A DNA stretch of 64,000 nt from Porphyridium purpureum. Taxonomy: Eukaryota. Location of the stretch: assembly GCA_008690995.1 (NCBI GenBank), contig VRMN01000003.1:124001-188000 (forward strand), read 5' to 3'. The stretch's first letter is position 1, and each line of letters starts with the position of its first letter. Position numbers and translations under genes: made by a program. The notes below the pieces were generated by a model. It was not told the DNA's origin, ran no database searches, and saw only the letters and a list, made by a program, of their open reading frames with translations. This document shows positions 1,729 through 62,835 of the stretch, piece after piece.

Positions 1729-2436
1729 TTACATTACAAGCTGCATCTGGCCGCGAATCAAACCTGCGGGAGCGCACGACGTGTGAATATTGACGTAATA
1801 GTTGGACGGGTTCTCCACCAGGTCCATCAAACTTGCGTCCTCACTGCTTGGGGGAGCTTCCGCGATCCCCATGCTCCACGGACCCATGTTCATCGTCGGG
1901 CACGGAACGCCGGGGCCACCGCAGAGGAACCACCTGGCCGGTCCCGTCGTGGATCCCTCTGACTGAATATGAATGTGCGCCACGGTGATCGGGTTCTCCT
2001 GGCACTCAGGCGTCGTATTCTGCTCAATGAAGAAAGTACCGTCAAAGTACATCGTTCCGTTCCAGATCCAGAACGAAAATTGTGCGTTCGAGGTTCCTGA
2101 AATTTCAGGAGTAGAAGAGGGGGACACCATATCAACAGCAGAAAGCATCAAGGTTGACCACAACGGAGTTGTGCTCAGGGCCTCGGTCACGCCACAGCCG
2201 CCCGGAATGATCTCGTACGCCACGCCCAGGACGTTCTCGCACAGATAATCACCACCCGGCGTGCACGAAGCCCCTGCGCACGGCAGCACTTGACACACGC
2301 CCGGCTCTGCCTGCGCGAACACGCACGAGCTAAACTCTGTGTTTTCGCAGCGGCACAGCGATGGCACCACCTGCGCCGTGGCCATGCCCACCACCGCCAG
2401 CACGGCGATCACAACTACCACTCCCACCTTGGCCAT
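1729..2436 (-). CDS. Secreted CHRD-domain protein with N-terminal Cys-rich module (copy 1)
   Basis: Signal peptide MAKVGVVVVIAVLAVVGMATA; CHRD motifs ITVAHIH...TGP and YYVNIHT..PAGLIRGQM; close paralog next door. Confidence 0.85.
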   Translation of the reverse strand: MAKVGVVVVIAVLAVVGMATAQVVPSLCRCENTEFSSCVFAQAEPGVCQVLPCAGASCTPGGDYLCENVLGVAYEIIPGGCGVTEALSTTPLWSTLMLSAVDMVSPSSTPEISGTSNAQFSFWIWNGTMYFDGTFFIEQNTTPECQENPITVAHIHIQSEGSTTGPARWFLCGGPGVPCPTMNMGPWSMGIAEAPPSSEDASLMDLVENPSNYYVNIHTSCAPAGLIRGQMQLVM

Positions 2437-3022: not shown

Positions 3023-3727
3023 TTACATCTCCATCTGCATCTGTCCGCGGATGAGACCTGCCGGCGCGCAAGTGGTGTGAATGTTGACGTAGTACTCGGA
3101 GGGGTTCGCCAACAGTCCCGCTACGTCCGAGTCCTCATTCGCTGGTGGAGCGTTGGACACGCCCTCCTCCCAGATGCCCATGTTTGTCGTCGGGCATGGC
3201 ACACCAGGCTCACCGCAGAGGAACCACCTGGCCGGACCCGTCGTGGATCCTTCCGCCTGCTCGTGAATGTGCGCAACGGTGATCGTGTTCTCCTGGCACT
3301 CTGGCGTCGTGTTCTGCTCAATGAAGAAGGTACCCGAGAAGTAGATTGTTCCATTGTTGATCCAGAACTTGAAGTCGGCGTTCGAGTTGCCCACCGTTAC
3401 AGGGTCCGAGGCAGATACCTCATCGACAACCGAGATGAGCGTGTCCGACCACAGGGGCGAGGTGCTGATCACTTCAGTCAGCTCACAGCCTCCCGGAACA
3501 ATGACATAGCCCGGCGCTGGCGCGCTCATGCAGAGATGCTCACCAGTTGGCGAGCAGGTGGCGCCCGCGCACGGGAACACCTGGCACACACCTGGCTCGG
3601 CCTGTGCAAACACGCACTGAGAGAACTCAGTGTTCTCGCAGCGGCAGGCAGTCGGAGCGTGCGCAGCGGCCGCCAAGCCCACGAGCATCAGTACGCCCGC
3701 GGCGAACAACATCCCATGCTTCGCCAT
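3023..3727 (-). CDS. Secreted CHRD-domain protein with N-terminal Cys-rich module (copy 2)
   Basis: Signal peptide; ITVAHIH and YYVNIHTTCAPAGLIRGQM; collinear with 1729-2436. Confidence 0.85.
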   Translation of the reverse strand: MAKHGMLFAAGVLMLVGLAAAAHAPTACRCENTEFSQCVFAQAEPGVCQVFPCAGATCSPTGEHLCMSAPAPGYVIVPGGCELTEVISTSPLWSDTLISVVDEVSASDPVTVGNSNADFKFWINNGTIYFSGTFFIEQNTTPECQENTITVAHIHEQAEGSTTGPARWFLCGEPGVPCPTTNMGIWEEGVSNAPPANEDSDVAGLLANPSEYYVNIHTTCAPAGLIRGQMQMEM

Positions 3728-18261: not shown

Positions 18262-19482
18262 TCACTCGCGTGTGCCAGTTCTTGCCTTCTTCGGCTCGGT
18301 GGCTGCATCTCCCGATTCTGACGATTCGCCGTGCATGTCAAGCGATCTGGAAGAACGTGCCTGTGGGCTCGCGACCGCTAACTGCAGCGATCGCTTCGGA
18401 GCACGCGCCGGCGAAAACGTTGAAACTGGCCTCACGGCATCGTGATGAAGATTCAGAGCCTGTGCACGTGGTTCCGCCAGGGATAAGTGCGAATGCAACG
18501 GCAACAAGTGCGGGTCCGTCACTGCTGTGTGCTGGGTTCTTGCTGATTTCTGCGACCGCTTTGGTGGCGGCAGAGTTTGCACCTCCGAAGACTGCATTCC
18601 AAACCGCTTTGGTTCAACGATCGCAAAGCGCGTCTCTGGCTGCACCGATGCAGGGTCTGTAGTCGCGTTTGAGGACAGCGGTACCTTTGCGGAAGAGGTC
18701 TCCGTAGCCCGCAGTGCTGCGGTTCTGGAGCCAATCACCAAGTGTCTGCGACCGCTTTTCCAGTCCCGCTTGCGAAAATTATGAAACCAGTTCCTCACTT
18801 GAGCAATCTCCAAACCCGTGTCCTGAGCCAGTTGGTGGCATTCCGGGTCTGACGGATACGGGTGGTCATCATGCGCGTCGGCCCATTCTCGAAGTAACGA
18901 CCTTGAGTCCGGGATGACGTTTCTTTTGGCCTCGTTCAACGTCTCTGCCTTCGAAAGCTTGGCGACCGCGGCATGAAAGCACTCACGTAGCATTCTGTCT
19001 TCGGCCGGGGAATACCACGTTGCATTGGGCACCATTTCTTGCACCAGCTCGAGCACGGTATCTTTGCACGCGTGCTCACATTGCGCAAGAATATCGTCCA
19101 GTCTTTGCTGGAAGACGTCCATTGTCTGGGGCGCAACTCCGGAGGACAGTTTTAGTCCTAAACCGTTGCCAGCCACAGTTGACGGTAAGACCTCTGGGTG
19201 CGCGTCTGCAATAGAATGATTCTCGAACCCCCTTTCCTCAGCACCCTGTCTCCTACCATTTCTACCAGCCCGGTCACCATCATCGATGACACTTCTAATC
19301 CTTTCCAACTCATTTGCATCCGAACCGACACGCGCTTGTGCGTCGTCCGCTGGACGAGGTTCACCATCCGATGCGTGCGCCATGGAAAGCTGCGTCAATG
19401 TGTCTGCGTCTCTCGCTGATCCTGGTGCTGAGGTGTGTCGCCCTCCGCAAACATCAGCCTGCGTCCTGCCACCCCGCTCCAT
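18262..19482 (-). CDS. TALE-class homeodomain transcription factor, KNOX-like helix 3
   Basis: [46 protein letters not shown]. Confidence 0.88.
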
Positions 19483-53634: not shown

Positions 53635-56600
53635 TCACGACCAATCAGAATCCTGCCAGTCAGGATACTTTGCCGGAAGAGACTGACGATTCTTAGCACC
53701 AGGACCTGTAGGCGTCGCTCCTCTTCCACCACCAAGCCTACCACGGTTTCCAACGCGTGGCTGCGAATCCAGTCCGGAGTGATCTAGATTTTCACCTCGC
53801 GAACTTGCGAATTCTTTGCTCGCATCTCCTCGTGAGAACCCTCTCATTTCCGAAGTCGGTGCTGATGCAGGTGGCGAGGGTCCAGCTTCATCCATCGTGT
53901 ATCCTTCTGACCATGCCGGTGCACGGGCTTTTCCACGCCTTTCCTCAGCACTCGCACCAACACGAGCAGGCTCCAATCGCGTGGTTGCCGGCACCGCGCC
54001 ACGTGGAGCTGCGGAAGCGCCGCTCGCAGGGGTCGGAGTATTCACATCTGCAGCACTGCCTGAGAGCCACGCAGGTAAAGGAGCCTTTCCACGTCTTTCT
54101 TCTGCACTTGCACCAGCACGGGCTGGCTCCAATCGCGTCGCCGCCGGAACCGCGCCACGTGGAGCTGCGGAAGCGCCGCTCGCAGGGGTCGGAGTATTCA
54201 CATCTGCAGCACTGCCTGAGAGCCACGCGGGTAAAGGAGCCTTTCCACGTCTTTCTTCTGCACTTGCACCAGCACGGGCTGGCTCCAATCGCGTGGCCGC
54301 CGGAACCGCGCCACGTAGGGCTGCGGAAGCGCCACTGGCACGGGTCGGAGTATTTACATCTGCAACATTGCCTGGTAGCCACGCAGGTAAAGGAGCCTTT
54401 CCACGCCTTTCTTCTGCGCTCGCACCAGCACGGGCTGGCTCCAATCGCGTGGCCGCCGGAACCGCGCCAAGTGGAGCTGCGGAAGCGCCGCTGGCAGGGG
54501 TCGGAGTATTCACATCTGCAGCATTGCCTGAGAGCCACGCAGGTAAAGGGGCCTTTCCACGCCTTTCTGCTGCACTCGCACCAGGACGGGCTGGTTCCAA
54601 TCGCGTGGCCGCCGGCACCGCGCCACGCGGAGCTGCGGAGAGGCCTCCGCTCTTCGTCGCTGACCCATCAAACAATACCTCGCGCAAGTTTCTATCTGGT
54701 GGGAATACCGATTGTGCTTGGGCTGTTGCGGTTACTTGCAGGGGATCTGGTCCAGAGAACGGTGCAACTTCTTCGTAAGGCCTGTCGTCGGCCCGCCCCA
54801 CACTGCCTCTCTTTCCAGGTGGAGCACCAGCGTCGACAGCCTCCGCCTCTTCCCGAGCCAAATGCCGCTTCCCACGTCTTTCTTCGGCGCTTCCACCAGC
54901 ACCTGCTAGCTCTCGAGAGCCAGCAATATTCACACGCTGGTCCACCACAGAACGGCTCCTTGCTTGTCCTATTATTGATGAGGACGGCTGATCTAATGGA
55001 CGCGTTGCTTCATGTGGGTCTGACACAGAAGAAGAAAGGGCGCGACCGGGAATCGCGGTAGCTGGTCGCTGTGGCCAGGTACCGGTGGCACGTTCTTGGG
55101 TTTCATTCTCCTGGACTATCCTTATCTGAGAGTTGCCACTCTGTGCCAGCGGCAACCTCTCGCTTTCTTCCCGACTTGCCCGCACGCGTGTTTGCGTGTC
55201 TCCGGGCGTTCCTAATCCGTCACGGTTAGAAATCAACTCGGATGGATGCGGGTTGTAGAAATTGGCATCGGCTACCGCACGAGGCCGCTTTGGGTAAACA
55301 GAATCTTGCACTTCTGCTGGTTCTCTTACGCTACGAAAAGGGCGACCAGGCAGCGACGATGCACTGGGCAGCGCACGACCTGGAAACCCCACTCCACTAC
55401 CAGATGTACCTTGCCATGATGGATCAGACCACCCGAACGGTCTTGCAGACAATGGTTCCGTACGAGGGAGTCCGTCTGAAAACCCATGACTATGATGTTC
55501 AGCCCATCCCGAAGGAGGCGCTGCTTCAGCAACAGGGGAGGCGCCTGCGCGTTCGGTGTAATGCCCCGGACCTGGATATTCAGCATGCGTGTGATCATAA
55601 GAATTGGGGGCCCAAGCCCTTGGAGCATCCCATTGCGCACCCTGATGGAAATCCTCGGGCACAGATTGACGCGCGGTGAAAGTGTCGGCACCACGCACCG
55701 AAGTATGCCCGAAATCACCTCTGGCCGAGTCAATGTACGCCTGCGCCTGTGGCGCTGGTTGCATGTAAGCCATGGTGTGCCCTGGCCTCGTGTCAGCGTG
55801 CAGTGCGTCTTGATCATATTCGTAATTCTGAACATGCACATGAACACGAGGGGAAGCTACTCGGTGCGGCGCTTCATGCGTTGGGAAAGGCTCCTGATCA
55901 TATTGCCTTTCAAAAGAACCGCTCCTAGGTATCACAGCGGTAGCTAGAGTATCTTCTGGTGACTGAAAATCAGGAGAAGGGTCTTCCATAACCACTTCCG
56001 TTGCCGATATCCTCGCCTCGACTGCAAATGTGTACGTGACCTGTGCTGTACCGAACTTCAGCACGTTTCCTGGATATAGCTCCACCTCTTCGTCCGTGCC
56101 GAGTATAAATTCATCTCCGCCTCGTGCGATACGTGTGATCTCGCCGTGGTCCGCCTGTTTAATCATGACTACCGGACGTGCTCCGTCAGGAAGAATGGTC
56201 CAGTAGCAGGCTGAATGAATATCCTTGACTGAAGGATGACCGACAAGTTCCCATTTGTCATGAAACGTCAAATCATCGTACGGCGACTCCAAGCCGAACA
56301 TCATCATGTATGGGTGGCTGCCAAACAACAGCAGCGACTTCTGGCCCGGCCTGTCTGGAATGGGGATGCGAGTTTTCTCCGACTCCTCATCCGGATCGCC
56401 AGGGCGCATTTTCCCGCGATCTCTCCAAAAGTATGCCTGGTACGCATGCGGTTGCGGCTGTGCGCGGCCCCAGATGTACTTTTTAAAAATGGTGGCGTTG
56501 GTATCTGTCTGGGCGTCCACGTCTGGCACATTTTCCAGTCGTCCGAAGAACTTGGCCAACTGCTTCAACTTGATCTCGCGCGCGCGCTGAAGCACCGCTT

Positions 56601-56664
56601 TCAGGTTCACTCGTTTCCCGCGTGGGTCCGGCAAAGTCTCTGTCTCGTTTCCATTTGATGTCAT
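53635..56664 (-). CDS. Protein with a divergent FHA-like domain, long disordered region and 52-aa tandem repeats
   Basis: 1009-aa ORF; EEVELYPGNVLKFGTAQVTYTF resembles an FHA C-terminal half. Confidence 0.7.
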   Translation of the reverse strand: MTSNGNETETLPDPRGKRVNLKAVLQRAREIKLKQLAKFFGRLENVPDVDAQTDTNATIFKKYIWGRAQPQPHAYQAYFWRDRGKMRPGDPDEESEKTRIPIPDRPGQKSLLLFGSHPYMMMFGLESPYDDLTFHDKWELVGHPSVKDIHSACYWTILPDGARPVVMIKQADHGEITRIARGGDEFILGTDEEVELYPGNVLKFGTAQVTYTFAVEARISATEVVMEDPSPDFQSPEDTLATAVIPRSGSFERQYDQEPFPTHEAPHRVASPRVHVHVQNYEYDQDALHADTRPGHTMAYMQPAPQAQAYIDSARGDFGHTSVRGADTFTARQSVPEDFHQGAQWDAPRAWAPNSYDHTHAEYPGPGHYTERAGASPVAEAAPPSGWAEHHSHGFSDGLPRTEPLSARPFGWSDPSWQGTSGSGVGFPGRALPSASSLPGRPFRSVREPAEVQDSVYPKRPRAVADANFYNPHPSELISNRDGLGTPGDTQTRVRASREESERLPLAQSGNSQIRIVQENETQERATGTWPQRPATAIPGRALSSSVSDPHEATRPLDQPSSSIIGQARSRSVVDQRVNIAGSRELAGAGGSAEERRGKRHLAREEAEAVDAGAPPGKRGSVGRADDRPYEEVAPFSGPDPLQVTATAQAQSVFPPDRNLREVLFDGSATKSGGLSAAPRGAVPAATRLEPARPGASAAERRGKAPLPAWLSGNAADVNTPTPASGASAAPLGAVPAATRLEPARAGASAEERRGKAPLPAWLPGNVADVNTPTRASGASAALRGAVPAATRLEPARAGASAEERRGKAPLPAWLSGSAADVNTPTPASGASAAPRGAVPAATRLEPARAGASAEERRGKAPLPAWLSGSAADVNTPTPASGASAAPRGAVPATTRLEPARVGASAEERRGKARAPAWSEGYTMDEAGPSPPASAPTSEMRGFSRGDASKEFASSRGENLDHSGLDSQPRVGNRGRLGGGRGATPTGPGAKNRQSLPAKYPDWQDSDWS
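53925..54637. repeat. 156-bp tandem repeat, about 4.6 copies, in-frame coding
   Basis: (c/t)tccaatcgcgt recurs at 53971, 54127, 54283, 54439 and 54595. Confidence 0.95.
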
Positions 56665-56947
56665 GATCGTTATCGCTTGACCTTGTCTCCCTCGGTGTCC
56701 CGCAAGCCGTATATCTCCACTTGCGCTTCGGGTGTTTCTCTCGGCAACTACTTACCCGGCGTTTCATAATAAAATAGGGGTGTTTTAGTATGCATTTGCG
56801 CACATGGGTTCGCTGCTGGTGGTGGTGGGTTGTTTTGTGGGAGTGTTGAGGTAGCGGGCGAACAGTGAAGAGAGAGAGCGAGAGAGAGAGAGGGCGGAGC
56901 AGGAAGCGAGGAACGAACGTGCGTGAGTTGGGTTGACGAGGCGTAAG

Positions 56948-57487
56948 ATGTTTACATTGAAGCGGCAGGCAAAGGAGACAGCGGAACGTAAGGCCTCGGG
57001 ACAGGAAGGTAATAAGCAGACGGCGGGGGAGCTGCGCGTGCAGAAGGATGTGAGCGCGCTGGACGTGCCGAGCTCGATGCAGCTCGAGTTTCCAAACCCG
57101 GACGACCTGATGCTGTTTGAGGTGACGCTCGCACCAGAGGAAGGCCTGTACAAGCCCGGGAAGTTCAAGTTCCAGATCAAGATTCCGCCAGACTATCCGT
57201 ACTCGCCGCCAAAGGCCACGTGCCTGACCAAGGTGTACCATCCCAACATCGACCTGCAAGGCAACGTGTGCCTCAACATTCTTAGACAAGATTGGAAGCC
57301 TGTTTTGACGCTGAACGCGGTGCTTTACGGCTTGCAACTGCTGTTCATGGAGCCAAACCCAGACGACCCGCTGAATAAGGACGCCGCCGAGCTCATGCGC
57401 AACAGCCCGAGCGCATTTCGTGCAAACGTGTACACATCGCTCAGAGGGGGCTATGTTGCAGGCGAATATTTCCAAAAGTGCATCTAG
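56948..57487 (+). CDS. UBC12: NEDD8/RUB-conjugating enzyme Ubc12
   Basis: MFTLKRQ.., AGELRVQKD, YHPNIDLQGNVCLNILRQDWKPVL, EPNPDDPLNK. Confidence 0.95.
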   Translation: MFTLKRQAKETAERKASGQEGNKQTAGELRVQKDVSALDVPSSMQLEFPNPDDLMLFEVTLAPEEGLYKPGKFKFQIKIPPDYPYSPPKATCLTKVYHPNIDLQGNVCLNILRQDWKPVLTLNAVLYGLQLLFMEPNPDDPLNKDAAELMRNSPSAFRANVYTSLRGGYVAGEYFQKCI

Positions 57488-57709
57488 ATGTGAAAGAAGC
57501 GGATTTTGGTTTTGGAGCTCGCATTCCATTCCTGTGACGCTAACATTTGAGCATTTCGCACGGCAGTGATGCGTTAGGATGCACGCAAGACAAGAGGAGC
57601 GGGAGCAAGAGGGAAAGTTATCCAATTAGCGTTCTGCGGGCTTGAGTGTTTTGTGTTTCGTACATGCTGTATATTGAGCCATCTTTCCGCTCATTCCAAG
57701 GTTTCTTTC

Positions 57710-59491
57710 CTAAACCTTTGTTGCGTCTTGCTCATCCCGAAGCTCTTTAAACCAATTACTTTGCAGCGCCTTTTTTGCATCCATGCGCCGCAGGGGATTT
57801 GCTTGCAGCAACCCTTTCAATAATGATATCACATCCGCTGAAAACACCGGAGCCAGGGGTGAAAAGTCTACTCTGGGATTCGCCGCAATCATCTGCAGAG
57901 TCTCTTCTGTCGAGCCGCCATCCACCGGATAGCTGTACGTCAGCAAGTAGTACAGCAAAACGCCGCAAGACCATGCGTCCACCTTCTGGCCATACGGCTC
58001 TTCGCGGGCGCATTCTGGTGCGACGTACCACGGACTGCCCACGAGCGAGCGCACGTCCTCTTCCGCGTACCCTCCAATTCTGCCCCATGTGTAATACCGC
58101 GCCAGTCCAAAATCACAAAGCTTGCATTGTTTGAAATGTATGCTGTCGACGACCAGAACGTTTTCCGGTTTTATGTCCCGATGCATAATGGATCGAGCGT
58201 GCAGTTCGGCCACGCCAGAAAAGACGCAGTACATGACTCTGCAAGCCTCCGCCTCTGACAGAGGGCCTGACCTTGCACCAAGCACGCGATCAAGTGAGCC
58301 GTTCGGCACCCACTCACTCACAAACACGATCGAGTGCGTATCAACCATAATATCGTAGAATTGCAGCAGGTATGGACAACTGACCTGACTGCTCACAATA
58401 TCGGTCACGATGCGCACCTCACGAAGCAGCAAGGACGCAGTAATCTCTTTGCCTTCTGCAACGTCAGCTATCTTCAAAAAGCGCAGTGCGCGCAAAAGAT
58501 TCTCATCATCGGTTCCGCGACGGCGTGCAAGGTAAATATTCGCGTAGGCTCCGTGGCCTATTGGTCTTTCAATGGTATACGTATTCAGAAAGTTCCACGT
58601 TATGCCCACCTTGATCACATTGTACCAAAGCATGTGCACGTGAGGGGCGCTGAACGAGAACGAGTACTCCGCTGCCGCAGCAAGTTTCGGATCGTCTCGG
58701 CAAGAAACTCTTTGGTCTCGCAAAGTGATTTTTAACGGGTCATGATAATCAATGACCAGCTCCGCCACAGCCAAGTTGAGCCACCACGAAACTTCCGGAG
58801 TCTCTTCCTTGAATCTGCAAAAGATCATGCTACCCCACACCAATTCGACGTATCTCCTCGCCGGGTACGGGGCTTGAGGGCTCTTCACCAGCACGTACTC
58901 GCCGAGCATGCGCTGGCTGGAGCTTCTGCTGGGCTTCAGATCAGTCAGGTCGTCCGAATGGGGCTTCAATACGGGCATGTTTGTCTCGGACGTTGCGCGC
59001 TTCATTGAGTAGCTGCCCTCTTGGTCCAGCTTCAAGCTCTCAAATGCACCGGGCAAGCCGCGCTTTTTCGCAGCATTCAGCCTGCGGCCCAATGCAGTAC
59101 CACCAAAGGAGGAGAATGTACTGCCGTCATTTGATCTCAGGGTCGAGGGGGTCCGGTCACCCGGAGTATCCCCACTCGACGACAGATCCAGAAAGGACGG
59201 CAGCGAGCAAATACTTGCGGAGCGCTGGCGGCTGAGAGGCGGCGGACGCACGTCGGCGTCTGCGTCGCCCTCCAAGGATTCCGAGTCTCGTGTTCTGTCG
59301 CGCGAGTGATGCGGACGCAGCTGCGTCTCGGCGGCGGCGGCGGCGGGCGCGCGCGGTGGCGGCCGGCTGTGCGCCGCGAGACGGCCATCCTCTGCAATTT
59401 GCCTGTCTGCGGGCCCCACGCTGGGACCCGCGAGCGGAGACAACGGGGACGGCATGTGGAACCGCGTGTTACCGTCTTCCTTCATTCTCAT
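57710..59491 (-). CDS. CAMK-group Ser/Thr protein kinase with a PH-like region upstream
   Basis: IGHGAYA, HRDIKPEN, DFG, GSPWYVAPE, DAWSCG. Confidence 0.92.
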   Translation of the reverse strand: MRMKEDGNTRFHMPSPLSPLAGPSVGPADRQIAEDGRLAAHSRPPPRAPAAAAAETQLRPHHSRDRTRDSESLEGDADADVRPPPLSRQRSASICSLPSFLDLSSSGDTPGDRTPSTLRSNDGSTFSSFGGTALGRRLNAAKKRGLPGAFESLKLDQEGSYSMKRATSETNMPVLKPHSDDLTDLKPSRSSSQRMLGEYVLVKSPQAPYPARRYVELVWGSMIFCRFKEETPEVSWWLNLAVAELVIDYHDPLKITLRDQRVSCRDDPKLAAAAEYSFSFSAPHVHMLWYNVIKVGITWNFLNTYTIERPIGHGAYANIYLARRRGTDDENLLRALRFLKIADVAEGKEITASLLLREVRIVTDIVSSQVSCPYLLQFYDIMVDTHSIVFVSEWVPNGSLDRVLGARSGPLSEAEACRVMYCVFSGVAELHARSIMHRDIKPENVLVVDSIHFKQCKLCDFGLARYYTWGRIGGYAEEDVRSLVGSPWYVAPECAREEPYGQKVDAWSCGVLLYYLLTYSYPVDGGSTEETLQMIAANPRVDFSPLAPVFSADVISLLKGLLQANPLRRMDAKKALQSNWFKELRDEQDATKV

Positions 59492-59863
59492 GCTCTTCAA
59501 CTGCCTCCACCATGAGCTCACACGCTCTCATTCTCCCTCTCTCCCTGCGCTCCCTCCAATGCCAACCGACGACACCACCACCGCCACCACCACCACCACC
59601 CAGTCTCACCTTATTTTTTTACTGCGTCCAGTGTCGCTGTCCCGCGGAGAGTGTAAGTACGAGCGGACTGTACTCGCGCATGTGGAAAAACCGACTTTCG
59701 CATAGAATTCGTGAGTGATGAAGCAAACACACGCGTTTCGGAGAAGACGTTTGATGATAGGAGCGGTACAGTTAAGAGTACAGTGCGTGGTTTCAGTTTC
59801 TGCGTGCTTTTTTAATCAACAGCAAACACGCGAACGATAAGCAACTGACTGCTGCCGGGGGGA

Positions 59864-62281
59864 TTAGAGCGCCATGCTGGCGCGTCGCCGTGCGCGTTGC
59901 GAAAAGGTGGGTGCGGCCTTGGCAGCGGAAGAAGGCGCCGACGCGGCTGACGACACTGCGCGTGAGACATCCTCCTGGTCGCGGGGAGAGCTCATGCAGC
60001 TCGAGATGTCCGCAAGCGACGAGCGCGGCGGGTAGTCGTGGCGCTCGCATGGCTTCGCAACAGGTCGGTGCTGCTCGGCTGCATTGTCGGCCGGTCGTGT
60101 GTTCTGGTGATCCACACTGCTGCACTCGTCCTCTCCCTTGGTGGACCCTTCGCCTTGCGCGACCTCAAACTCGAACAGCCGGCACACGAGATCCTTCTTC
60201 AGGCCTGAAGAATCTATGCCATGCGACTTGAGAGCACTCCTCAGTTGCAGCACCTTCATGGATGAAAGTTCCGTCATCTTTCGCTCCTTTGCAGCAGAGG
60301 AGATTGTAACAACGCCCGCGTCTCCATGAGCGGCTTCTTCAGCCTGAGGCTCGTTGGTCTCTGTACCATCTCCGCTTGACGCATCTTGCTTTTCCAACGG
60401 TGGTGATGGGCTCTGGTCAAAGTCGATGGTTCTGGAAGCTACACACCCGTCGCGCTTGACCGACGCTTCCACGGCGCGTTCAACGAGCGCGGCCTTCTTG
60501 CCCACAGTGGAGAGCGACAACTCCTTCAGAAAGAGACGAAGCTCGGCGACTTTCATAGTCGACATTTCCGCACGCACCTTGGTGGACGGGCAGTGCGAAT
60601 CGGAGGATTCCCGAGCTGCAATCGTCGGTGTCGACTCTCCTGCATTCATCTCCGGCGGGTGAAGCGGCTCGCCTCCTTCTCGCAGGGTTCCTTCATTCAT
60701 GGTCTCCTCTGCACATGCAGCAGAGATAGGTTGCTCGTCGTTCTCTTTTGTTTCGTCTCCGCGTGAATCCTCACTCATGGTCATGGTGCCCGGCTCCACG
60801 CCAAGAGTCGGCTCCTGCTCAGGTGCCTTGGTGGTCATACTGTCATCAGAAGTCTCTGAGGCAGATGGCGAAATGCTGCGAAACGAGCCGAACAGACCTT
60901 TCATGGGAGAAAACGCGCCGGAAATTCTTTCCAGCCGGGAGCGGGACGGTTCCGCTGCGGTTTGCACCGGAGGTGGCTGGAGCGGCGCAGACGACGACGG
61001 CTTCCCAGCGTTGCCTTCGGGTTGTTCCGAAAATAGGGATCGCCTCAAAGTAGGAAGCATACTCATCACGCGCGAGCGCACCTGCGACGCCCGTCCAGCC
61101 ACACGAACGCTCGCTGGTGAGTAGTGCGGCCCCTGTTCTAGCTCGAGCATGCTTGAAAAGGCGACTGATTTGCGCTTCGCCTGAGTGGCCAGGACAGCTG
61201 CGCAGTCTTTGTGCGTGCCGATCACCGCGGAGCCGCGCGCTCGAAGGCCAGAGCCCTTTTTCAAAAATGTATGTCTCTTCTCGATGCGGTCCACCGTCCG
61301 ATGCATCCAGGAAAAGGTCTGAGCCTTGTAAACACGCGGAACACTCCCAGGAGGGGCCGACGTCGGAGTGTCGCTGTTTCCATTCTCCATGAAATCGTCT
61401 GCGTTCGAGCCGTGCTCTGCAGCAGCCTTTCCGGAGGAAGCGGCGTCGCCACACTGCAAATCCGGCGTATGCAGCTCAGGTTTCTCCTTTGCAGCACGCT
61501 TTTCAGACTTTGTCGGTCGCTTAGAGCCTTTTGCCTGGCGTGGGTCCACAAAGGCCATGGAAGCCTGGAAAATATTCTGGGCATTCGCGCCAGGTACCTG
61601 CGCGCTCATGGAGGTTGCAGGCAAGGACAAGCGCCGAGGAGCGTCCTCGTGGTTCATCGCTGGCAAAGATCTCCTGCGCTCTGTTGCAGGAGCAGAAAGA
61701 CACGCACGAACACTTTTCAGAGCATCGAGCTCATCCGACACCAGCAGCGAATTGCGACGGCGCTCTGTGGACTTCGCCACGGTGTCCTCCGCAATATTGA
61801 GGGATGAGGCCTGCTCCACCGCAGGCTGAGCGTCCTTGGTCATGATTTCATGGGCCGACGTGAAGACAAAGCAGCGGTTTGAGATCCACAGCTTGTCGCC
61901 ATTTATGAGGGCTACTTCTTGCCCTGGTCCCAGAATATTCTCATTCACCGCCATGACAAGATCCTCACTCATGACCTTGATCCGCGCCGCTTTGGATGCT
62001 GGATCCACAGAAATCATCGCGTGCAATTTGGAAACATCCTTTCTACGAATCTGTACATCACAACGCTCATCGCGGCCAATAAGGCAGCAGGCCTCGTCCA
62101 GAATGAGAGAAGCACCTTTCTCTCCTGGGGGGTCAGTCCGCAGGACCGTGATCACTCCGTATACTGGGCCGTCAAATCTTTCCACCGCACGCTCTACTTT
62201 GGTGCCTAACTGCTGTTCATTCTTCTGGTTCGCTCTGCGCTTTCCGCGCAGAGCTTGTGAACGAGAAGCCTTGCCCACCAT
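59864..62281 (-). CDS. FHA + PP1-docking motif + two SAP domains (Ki-67-like architecture)
   Basis: FHA CLIGRDERCDVQI...VSKLH; KRKSVAF; SAP motifs MKVAELRLFL..LSTVGKKAALVER and MKVLQLRSAL..GLKKDLVCRL. Confidence 0.85.
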   Translation of the reverse strand: MVGKASRSQALRGKRRANQKNEQQLGTKVERAVERFDGPVYGVITVLRTDPPGEKGASLILDEACCLIGRDERCDVQIRRKDVSKLHAMISVDPASKAARIKVMSEDLVMAVNENILGPGQEVALINGDKLWISNRCFVFTSAHEIMTKDAQPAVEQASSLNIAEDTVAKSTERRRNSLLVSDELDALKSVRACLSAPATERRRSLPAMNHEDAPRRLSLPATSMSAQVPGANAQNIFQASMAFVDPRQAKGSKRPTKSEKRAAKEKPELHTPDLQCGDAASSGKAAAEHGSNADDFMENGNSDTPTSAPPGSVPRVYKAQTFSWMHRTVDRIEKRHTFLKKGSGLRARGSAVIGTHKDCAAVLATQAKRKSVAFSSMLELEQGPHYSPASVRVAGRASQVRSRVMSMLPTLRRSLFSEQPEGNAGKPSSSAPLQPPPVQTAAEPSRSRLERISGAFSPMKGLFGSFRSISPSASETSDDSMTTKAPEQEPTLGVEPGTMTMSEDSRGDETKENDEQPISAACAEETMNEGTLREGGEPLHPPEMNAGESTPTIAARESSDSHCPSTKVRAEMSTMKVAELRLFLKELSLSTVGKKAALVERAVEASVKRDGCVASRTIDFDQSPSPPLEKQDASSGDGTETNEPQAEEAAHGDAGVVTISSAAKERKMTELSSMKVLQLRSALKSHGIDSSGLKKDLVCRLFEFEVAQGEGSTKGEDECSSVDHQNTRPADNAAEQHRPVAKPCERHDYPPRSSLADISSCMSSPRDQEDVSRAVSSAASAPSSAAKAAPTFSQRARRRASMAL

Positions 62282-62835
62282 TGCGATCTGCTCGCGATGC
62301 AACTCAAAATCGTGGCTGGCGACCTCAAGCCTGGTCCAGTCCTTCTAGCGCTCAATACGGTATAGCACGAGGTACCCGATCCAAGCTGGTTTCCTCACCA
62401 AAGCAACACCCAAACTCGACACTCACGAGGACCACTCTCTCTTTTCACACCCTCTGCACCTTCCTGGCTGACCGACCTCACTCGCCTTCCTTATATCCTC
62501 TCCTTGCCCAGATTGCGCGTGGAGCAACCGGATCTAGTTCAAATGTCTTCATCGTCGTCTTCCACATGATGCAACAGCTAGCGCCGTGCGCCATACGCAC
62601 AAAGGACATCATCCAACTCGTGGTTTCATCGCAAAACACGCATCGACTCGTTGCAGTTTCGGTCCTTCTTGCCAGAGCGGCGCGTCCCACGTGTCCCATC
62701 TGGTGGTGTCCCGACTGGAGCCGTAACGGTCACTTCGCTGTACACTATCGCACTGCCACGCAGGCGTGTACAGCACTGGGGTACAGTTATGTATCGAGCC
62801 CACAACAGGAGGTACAGTGACAGCCTCGAGCGGTG

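What the first reader, a model, noticed from the sequence alone, without database searches (positions are those of the whole stretch)
59864..62281. Ki-67-like architecture (FHA, RVxF, chromatin-binding C-terminus) in an alga
Seen: the N-terminal FHA (YGVITVLRTD..GASLILDEACCLIGRDERCDVQI..VSKLHAMI) resembles my recollection of the Ki-67 FHA (LVTIKRSG.DG..FPL....CLFGR..ECDIRI..VSKQHCKI). It is followed by a KRKSVAF PP1-docking motif, a long disordered region with SP/TP sites and two SAP domains. Known: vertebrate Ki-67 has FHA, a PP1-binding motif and a C-terminal DNA-binding domain, and coats mitotic chromosomes. Inference: a deep homolog or analog in Archaeplastida that uses SAP domains as the chromatin anchor.
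Basis: partly seen in the sequence, partly recalled or inferred. Interest (0 to 1): 0.7.

Follow-up and report, generated by a model that had tools for sequence, protein, structure and literature searches.

The report
Red-algal Ki-67 relative with SAP anchors
This algal gene encodes a likely distant relative of the human cell-division marker Ki-67 that has two SAP domains in place of Ki-67's basic tail and is predicted to bring the phosphatase PP1 to chromosomes, which would extend the family into red algae.

Summary
59864-62281 (-) is one intron-free, transcribed ORF of 805 aa: FHA domain (41-141), RVxF site (371-375) and two SAP domains. The FHA is most like Ki-67's: top PDB match alone by a thin margin (22.6 vs 21.2 bits), and 55 vs 27 bits with a profile including its relatives. 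A Rhodosorus marinus protein has the same FHA type, the same extended PP1 site (RVxF..EL..HYSP), a C-terminal SAP, 17 TP-ending repeats and CDK-site enrichment. Another protist protein has this FHA plus six SAPs. The PP1 site matches a profile of other family members (17.9 bits; 0 of 75 unrelated RVxF windows and 0 of 2000 shuffles as high). Against a full Ki-67 equivalent: no repeats, no CDK-site excess (9 vs 9.1 expected), no KiR-SLiM, no long basic tail, and weak tree support (79/84). The family is already known in fungi (bridgin), amoebae and a stramenopile; a 2026 preprint reports none in plants. Verdict: a SAP-anchored variant of the Ki-67/bridgin family, likely a chromatin-bound PP1 recruiter. 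Function is untested, and red-algal origin is inferred.

The parts
59864..62281 (-). Single-exon ORF, 805 aa, Ki-67/bridgin-related protein (P0001)
   Evidence: RNA reads without joints, contig 59804-62436
61859..62161 (-). FHA domain, Ki-67 type, aa 41-141. Keeps G69-R70 and S84-x-x-H87; lacks the Asn seen before the last conserved strand in most other FHA rows
   Evidence: Pfam E 1.7e-6; PDB searches; model pLDDT 94, Foldseek top hit 2aff, rmsd 1.5; alignment
61112..61177 (-). Extended PP1-docking site, aa 369-390: RVxF (KSVAF 371-375), then an EL pair and HYSP
   Evidence: shared with Rhodosorus and a JGI protein group; 17.9 bits against a profile without the query
60467..60565 (-). SAP domain 1, aa 573-605, predicted DNA-binding
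   Evidence: Pfam PF02037; pI 9.8 for aa 566-608
60419..60433 (-). Second RVxF-consensus match RTIDF (617-621); Rhodosorus has RTINF. Suggestive only
60167..60268 (-). SAP domain 2, about aa 672-705, predicted DNA-binding
   Evidence: second SAP stretch and HeH 672-690; Tho1 SAP 671-712
59900..62140 (+). Antisense RNA reads over the gene body (approximate span)
   Evidence: strand calibrated on the neighbouring genes; means

Best explanation
This is likely a red-algal homologue of the Ki-67/bridgin family whose two SAP domains are predicted to hold it on chromatin while its conserved RVxF site is predicted to recruit the phosphatase PP1 there during cell division. Shown: the domain order, the Ki-67-type FHA, the conserved extended PP1 site, the same architecture in Rhodosorus, and transcription. 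Inferred: (1) SAP domains bind DNA (established for the family, own knowledge) and do the job of the Ki-67 LR domain or the bridgin basic domain; (2) the disordered linker projects the FHA and the PP1 site away from the DNA; (3) PP1 docking is switched off in early mitosis by phosphorylation at S372 (R-K-S-V, Aurora-type) and S388-P (CDK-type) and on at mitotic exit, by analogy with Ki-67/RepoMan (PMC5005033), although the Ki-67 Aurora site is the x of RVxF, which is Ala here; (4) the FHA binds a nucleolar or kinetochore partner, perhaps without needing phosphothreonine, because the Rhodosorus-type relatives have lost the Arg and Ser of the pocket.
For: FHA alone against the PDB: Ki-67 first, 22.6 bits; next eukaryotic FHA Dun1 at 14.2. 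Profile of query + Rhodosorus + two Logan fragments: Ki-67 55 bits, next 26.6, NIPP1 12.3. Nine-row profile with no row identified as animal or fungal: Ki-67 72, bacterial DgcB 55, Dun1 42, CHFR and NIPP1 35. Of 17 single-domain hits among 51 non-self hits in 1.84 billion representatives, 15 are Ki-67-type by my reading, including a Coemansia protein named Ki-67 antigen and a chytrid protein with Pfam PP1_bind. A nine-row profile of Ki-67-type FHAs (six named animal/fungal, three unnamed) scores the query 71.9, above all 66 other FHA domains (max 59.8). Foldseek ranks 2aff and 1r21 first. Rhodosorus KAJ8904151.1 / EP00189_P000786: same FHA type, extended RVxF, SAP, 17 KELP..TP repeats, 47-49 S/T-P vs 16 expected. 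PP1-site profile test: 17.9 bits, 0 of 75 background windows, 0 of 2000 tail shuffles. R[RK]xS/T sites 5 vs 1.2 expected, p 0.011. 0 of 12 strain differences fall in the domains or motifs (p about 0.04).
Against: Alone, the query beats a bacterial FHA by only 1.4 bits. A profile of the six named animal and fungal Ki-67 FHAs gives it 58.4, below 2 of 66 other FHA domains. Tree support for the Ki-67-type group is weak (79/84; SH-aLRT 94), the outgroup is mostly bacterial-type FHA, and the query does not pair with Rhodosorus in either tree. VIA Z-scores are tied within 1 unit (16.5 vs 16.1), and the model was built with Ki-67-type rows. No Pfam PP1_bind or KI67R match at E<=1. Against only three opisthokont PP1 sites the tail match is not significant (257 of 2000 shuffles). 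No repeats, no CDK-site excess, pI 8.1, last 100 aa pI 6.3, R/K 1.35, whereas the preprint finds low R/K in all its homologues. Motif order differs from Rhodosorus. No binding, localisation or cell-cycle data exist. Profile rows were picked by eye from the hits.
Confidence: 0.6

Rival explanations
1. [quoted passage not shown] This is a more specific version of the same family membership.
For: Same layout and similar size class as bridgin (FHA 1-124, PP1 site, acidic disordered middle, DNA-binding C-terminus; PMC7794384). The acidic stretch 441-565 has pI 4.4. Aurora-type sites are enriched. Most CCAN components are reported as not identified in Archaeplastida (PMC9252888).
Against: Bridgin function depends on a long basic domain (pI 11.2), absent here. 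No kinetochore evidence was obtained, and the CCAN content of this genome could not be checked (no genome).
Confidence: 0.25
2. It is a full functional equivalent of vertebrate Ki-67: a brush coating mitotic chromosomes and organising the perichromosomal layer, with NIFK as FHA partner.
For: Ki-67-type FHA with G-R and S-x-x-H intact; the Rhodosorus relative has TP-ending repeats and many CDK sites; plants have a perichromosomal layer without an identified Ki-67 (PMC8419432).
Against: A quarter of the length of human Ki-67, near-neutral charge, no repeats, chance-level CDK sites, no KiR-SLiM. Red-algal mitosis is closed (recalled, not checked), which lessens the need for a surfactant.
Confidence: 0.15
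3. Independent assembly: an unrelated FHA, a chance or convergent RVxF and mobile SAP domains form a nuclear PP1 regulator for DNA repair or RNA processing, in the manner of NIPP1 or PNUTS.
For: FHA, RVxF and SAP are all promiscuous modules; single-sequence margins are thin; tree support is weak; the PDB does not hold every eukaryotic FHA family.
Against: NIPP1, CHFR, MDC1, Dun1, CEP170, SNIP1 and kanadaptin FHA domains all score 30 bits or more below Ki-67 with the profiles. The residues after RVxF follow the family pattern. The Rhodosorus relative adds repeats and CDK sites.
Confidence: 0.12

Closest known systems
Vertebrate Ki-67 (MKI67; PDB 1r21, 2aff; PMC8354752, PMC5005033)
   Same: N-terminal FHA of the same type (26-27% identity, rmsd 1.5-1.7 A for the model); RVxF site downstream, with a similarly placed E-hydrophobic pair and S/T-P; long low-complexity middle; DNA-binding C-terminus.
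   Different: 805 vs 3256 aa; no KI67R repeats; no KiR-SLiM; no CDK-site excess; SAP domains instead of the LR domain; pI 8.1.
Bridgin (Bgi1) of Cryptococcus neoformans (PMC7794384)
   Same: FHA, putative PP1 site, acidic disordered middle, chromatin-binding C-terminus; placed by its authors in one family with Ki-67.
   Different: Bridgin uses a 290-aa basic domain and has 13 repeats; this protein has folded SAP domains and no repeats. Its homologue list has blank rows for Micromonas and Arabidopsis and no red alga. No direct sequence comparison with Bgi1 was made.
Non-vertebrate Ki-67-like proteins (bioRxiv 10.64898/2026.06.18.733134)
   Same: Defined mainly by the FHA; variable size, charge, PP1-site position and number; includes Dictyostelium, Thecamonas and the stramenopile Hondaea.
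   Different: The preprint concludes there is likely no homologue in plants; its main text mentions neither red algae nor SAP domains; it reports low R/K in all homologues, here 1.35.
Rhodosorus marinus KAJ8904151.1 (hypothetical / 'SAP domain-containing protein')
   Same: FHA type (pairwise E 9e-9), extended RVxF..EL..HYSP, RTI[DN]F, RRxS motifs, C-terminal SAP.
   Different: 1252-1272 aa, 17 repeats, one weak SAP (just under the Pfam cut-off), FHA pocket degenerate, PP1 site near the C-terminus. It is uncharacterised.

Membership tests
Ki-67/bridgin family (wide sense) | N-terminal FHA of the Ki-67 type | tested here: met
   Ki-67 ranks first; wide profile ranks the query above 66 of 66 other FHAs; thin margin alone, tree support weak
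Ki-67/bridgin family (wide sense) | RVxF PP1 motif downstream of the FHA | tested here: met
   KSVAF 371-375, conserved with its tail in Rhodosorus and other members; sequence only
Ki-67/bridgin family (wide sense) | Predominantly disordered outside the FHA | tested here: inconclusive
   No other Pfam domain but SAP, Atlas pLDDT 0.47; no disorder predictor run
Ki-67/bridgin family (wide sense) | Repeats in the disordered region (most, not all, members) | tested here: not met
   No tandem repeat in the gene; 17 repeats in the Rhodosorus relative
Ki-67/bridgin family (wide sense) | Many CDK S/T-P sites | tested here: not met
   9 vs 9.1 expected; the density is still inside the published range of one per 8-128 aa; enriched in Rhodosorus
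Bridgin (authors' screen) | Long basic C-terminal chromatin-binding domain | tested here: not met
   aa 441-805 pI 5.1; last 100 aa pI 6.3; only the SAP domains (pI 9.8, 9.1) and a 46-aa tail (pI 11.3) are basic
Bridgin (authors' screen) | KMN-dependent kinetochore localisation | not testable with these tools
   needs imaging or pull-down
Vertebrate Ki-67 / RepoMan | Pfam PP1_bind domain with KiR-SLiM | tested here: not met
   no PF15276 hit at E<=1; the published KiR-SLiM consensus is not matched by eye beyond the S/T-P
Vertebrate Ki-67 | KI67R repeats | tested here: not met
   no PF08065 hit
Vertebrate Ki-67 | FHA binds phospho-NIFK by beta-strand addition | not tested
   no NIFK sequence of this organism was available (no genome)
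Vertebrate Ki-67 | PP1 binding and chromosome-periphery localisation | not testable with these tools
   needs experiment

The most novel reading that the evidence does not exclude
The Ki-67/bridgin family dates to the last eukaryotic common ancestor as an FHA + extended-PP1-site + chromatin-anchor protein. A branch outside opisthokonts (red algae and at least one other protist) uses folded SAP domains as the anchor. Red algae thus kept a Ki-67 that green plants lost, and offer a minimal, genetically tractable version for asking what Ki-67 did originally.
Probability: 0.45. Interest if true: 0.72.

Novelty: new variant of a known kind. Interest (0 to 1): 0.56.

Why it matters
Ki-67 was long held to be vertebrate-specific, and its ancestral role (chromosome coat, kinetochore bridge or PP1 scaffold) is open. 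A red-algal homologue, together with rhizarian candidates and the published stramenopile, amoebozoan and fungal ones, points to an origin before the major eukaryotic splits and to loss in green plants, where two papers found none. The swap of a disordered basic tail for folded SAP domains is a natural test of whether the anchor is interchangeable. An 805-aa single-exon version is easy to tag, delete or graft onto human Ki-67.

Tried and rejected
Word-based homologue search with the query FHA found only the query among 168 candidates of 442-1409 aa. The search with the nine-row profile missed two of its own rows (P0030, P0028), so its blanks are weak. Folding the FHA without an alignment failed (pLDDT 34). 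Alignment A4 used a C-terminal Rhodosorus fragment by mistake and was discarded. The metagenome scan matched 160 stretches, none confirmed; a second scan could not be run. The Atlas search of the whole protein gave only hits under 0.9; a 'KI67 protein' cluster appeared third by structure, under the bar; the FHA-only Atlas search did not complete. The S/T-P argument was rejected as chance. The idea that the neighbour at 53635-56664 has a degenerate FHA was rejected (no score with three FHA profiles). Hits P0005, P0006 and P0008 are repeat artefacts (Pfam shows no FHA for the two scanned). No complex was predicted, since no PP1 or NIFK sequence was in hand. Earlier scan findings: none. Rows left out of trees: near-duplicates, fragments P0016 and P0035, and all but 30 or 14 of the other FHA domains.

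Full report
Observation. The stretch 62281->59864 is one open frame of 805 codons. Pfam finds an FHA domain (67-133, E 1.7e-6) and two SAP stretches (E 1.7e-18). Two raw-read RNA runs and two contig sets cover it with no splice joint, and one contig spans 59804-62436. No genome is held and no tool named the organism. I infer a unicellular red alga from three things: the intron-poor, dense genes; a GAPDH with an N-terminal extension starting MAFV, which I recall as the red-algal plastid transit-peptide pattern; and the fact that the named protein sharing most features is from Rhodosorus marinus.

Which FHA is it? Alone against the PDB, the domain's best matches are the two Ki-67 FHA entries (22.6 bits), just ahead of a bacterial FHA (21.2) and well ahead of the next eukaryotic one (Dun1, 14.2). 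A search of 1.84 billion representatives gave 51 non-self hits. Most multi-domain hits are bacterial-type tandem FHA proteins that score by summing. Of the 17 single-domain hits, 15 have a Ki-67-type N-terminal FHA by my reading. Named ones are a Coemansia 'Ki-67 antigen', a Chytriomyces protein with Pfam PP1_bind, and two Reticulomyxa proteins; a fish protein with two FHAs and PP1_bind is also among the hits. A nine-row profile with no row identified as animal or fungal scores Ki-67 at 72 bits, bacterial DgcB 55, Dun1 42, CHFR and NIPP1 35, MDC1 20. A four-row profile (query, Rhodosorus, two Logan fragments) scores Ki-67 at 55 and the next entry at 26.6. In reverse, six named animal and fungal Ki-67 FHAs score the query 58.4, below 2 of 66 other FHA domains, but score Rhodosorus 73-75. 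With three unnamed Ki-67-type rows added, the query scores 71.9, above all 66. The alignment-based model (pLDDT 94) matches 2aff and 1r21 first in Foldseek (rmsd 1.5-1.7 A; the other listed rows 2.3 or more), but VIA Z-scores are tied. In trees the Ki-67-type rows form one side against mostly bacterial-type FHAs, with SH-aLRT 94 in a quick tree of 53 rows and 79/84 in a careful tree of 32 rows. The query does not pair with Rhodosorus, and other eukaryotic FHA families were not available as rows. Conclusion: a divergent Ki-67-type FHA, supported by profiles and weakly by trees. Rows were chosen by eye, which favours the result.

The PP1 site. A bare RVxF match is cheap (16% of shuffles). But Rhodosorus has RRK[CS]VFF..EL.SGAHYSP opposite the query's KRKSVAF..EL.QGPHYSP, and a group of seven unnamed JGI proteins with the same FHA type has KSVRFS.FNEIK.NGQ.VYSP. 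These align with the fish and chytrid PP1_bind regions at RVxF, an E-hydrophobic pair and a final S/T-P. A profile of 13 such windows without the query scores it 17.9 bits; 0 of 75 unrelated RVxF windows (max 9.0) and 0 of 2000 tail shuffles reach that. With the three opisthokont windows alone the tail is not significant (257 of 2000). Pfam PP1_bind is not hit, and the KiR-SLiM consensus of PMC5005033 (passages) is not matched. A second consensus match, RTIDF, recurs as RTINF in Rhodosorus; this is post hoc and only suggestive.

The SAP anchor recurs. Rhodosorus has one C-terminal SAP (21.9 and 23.5 bits, just under the 23.9 cut-off). An EukProt protein (GECG01015369.1, organism not given) has the same FHA type, five or more short TP-containing repeats and six SAPs, but no RVxF. 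Rhodosorus also carries 17 KELP..TP repeats and 47-49 S/T-P sites against 16 expected, and so meets criteria the query misses. The query has 9 S/T-P (9.1 expected), no tandem repeat, pI 8.1, R/K 1.35 and no long basic tail. R[RK]xS/T sites are enriched (5 vs 1.2, p 0.011). Twelve strain differences in the ORF, 9 non-synonymous, all lie outside the domains and motifs (p about 0.04).

Mechanism. The most economical reading is a chromatin-tethered PP1-targeting subunit. The SAP pair binds DNA, the linker extends, and the RVxF module docks PP1 once mitotic phosphorylation (S372, S388) is removed. The FHA binds a partner, possibly without phosphothreonine, since the Rhodosorus-type rows have lost the pocket Arg and Ser. 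All four steps are inferred. The short, near-neutral chain fits a scaffold or bridgin-like linker better than a charged brush.

What is known. Bridgin (PMC7794384: abstract, discussion, passages and Supplementary Data 4 read) is a fungal kinetochore protein with this layout. Its authors name Ki-67 as the animal homologue and list Dictyostelium; Micromonas and Arabidopsis are blank, and no red alga is listed. A 2026 preprint (10.64898/2026.06.18.733134: results parts 1-2, part 1 of section 9, discussion and passages read; Table 1 and supplements not seen) finds homologues in invertebrates, fungi, Dictyostelium, Thecamonas and Hondaea and concludes there is likely none in plants. Ki-67 features are from PMC8354752 (passages); absence from barley chromosomes is from PMC8419432 (passages); PMC9252888 and 10.1101/2025.11.28.691167 were seen as passages. 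Eight searches (listings only for unread papers) showed no report of a red-algal or SAP-bearing Ki-67; the library lacks most subscription papers.

Verdict. It is not vertebrate Ki-67 and not a standard bridgin, since defining features of both were tested and not met. It is likely homologous to both through the FHA and the PP1 module, with a different anchor: a new variant of a known kind. Interest 0.56.

Noticed in passing
window 59900-62140: In two stranded RNA runs of one study, antisense reads over the gene equal or exceed sense reads (mean depth sense/antisense 14.6/17.1 and 3.1/18.2), while neighbouring genes show the expected strand. The longest ATG frame on that strand is 178 aa. Possibly a regulatory antisense RNA over a cell-cycle gene; rests alone (means).
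   Followed up: partly
window 53635-56664 (-): 1009-aa ORF with no Pfam match and a 156-bp unit repeated 4.6 times at 53930-54639; FHA profiles do not match it.
   Followed up: partly
window 18262-19482 (-) and 20101-21648 (+): Two divergently transcribed TALE/KN-type homeobox genes side by side.
   Followed up: no
window 1729-2436 (-) and 3023-3727 (-): Tandem pair of secreted-looking CHRD-domain genes with Cys-rich N-termini.
   Followed up: no
window 56927-57487 (+) and 57710-59491 (-): A ubiquitin-conjugating (E2) gene and a Ser/Thr kinase gene converge, with overlapping transcripts around 57335-57870.
   Followed up: no
proteins P0024, P0053-P0058 (JGI, unnamed): A group of very short (300-414 aa) basic proteins with a Ki-67-type FHA and one or two copies of the extended RVxF motif; perhaps the smallest family members, taxon unknown.
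   Followed up: partly
proteins P0070-P0072 (Rhodosorus), P0009, P0027: Their FHA has lost the Arg and Ser of the phosphothreonine pocket yet scores higher than the query with Ki-67 profiles in most cases.
   Followed up: partly
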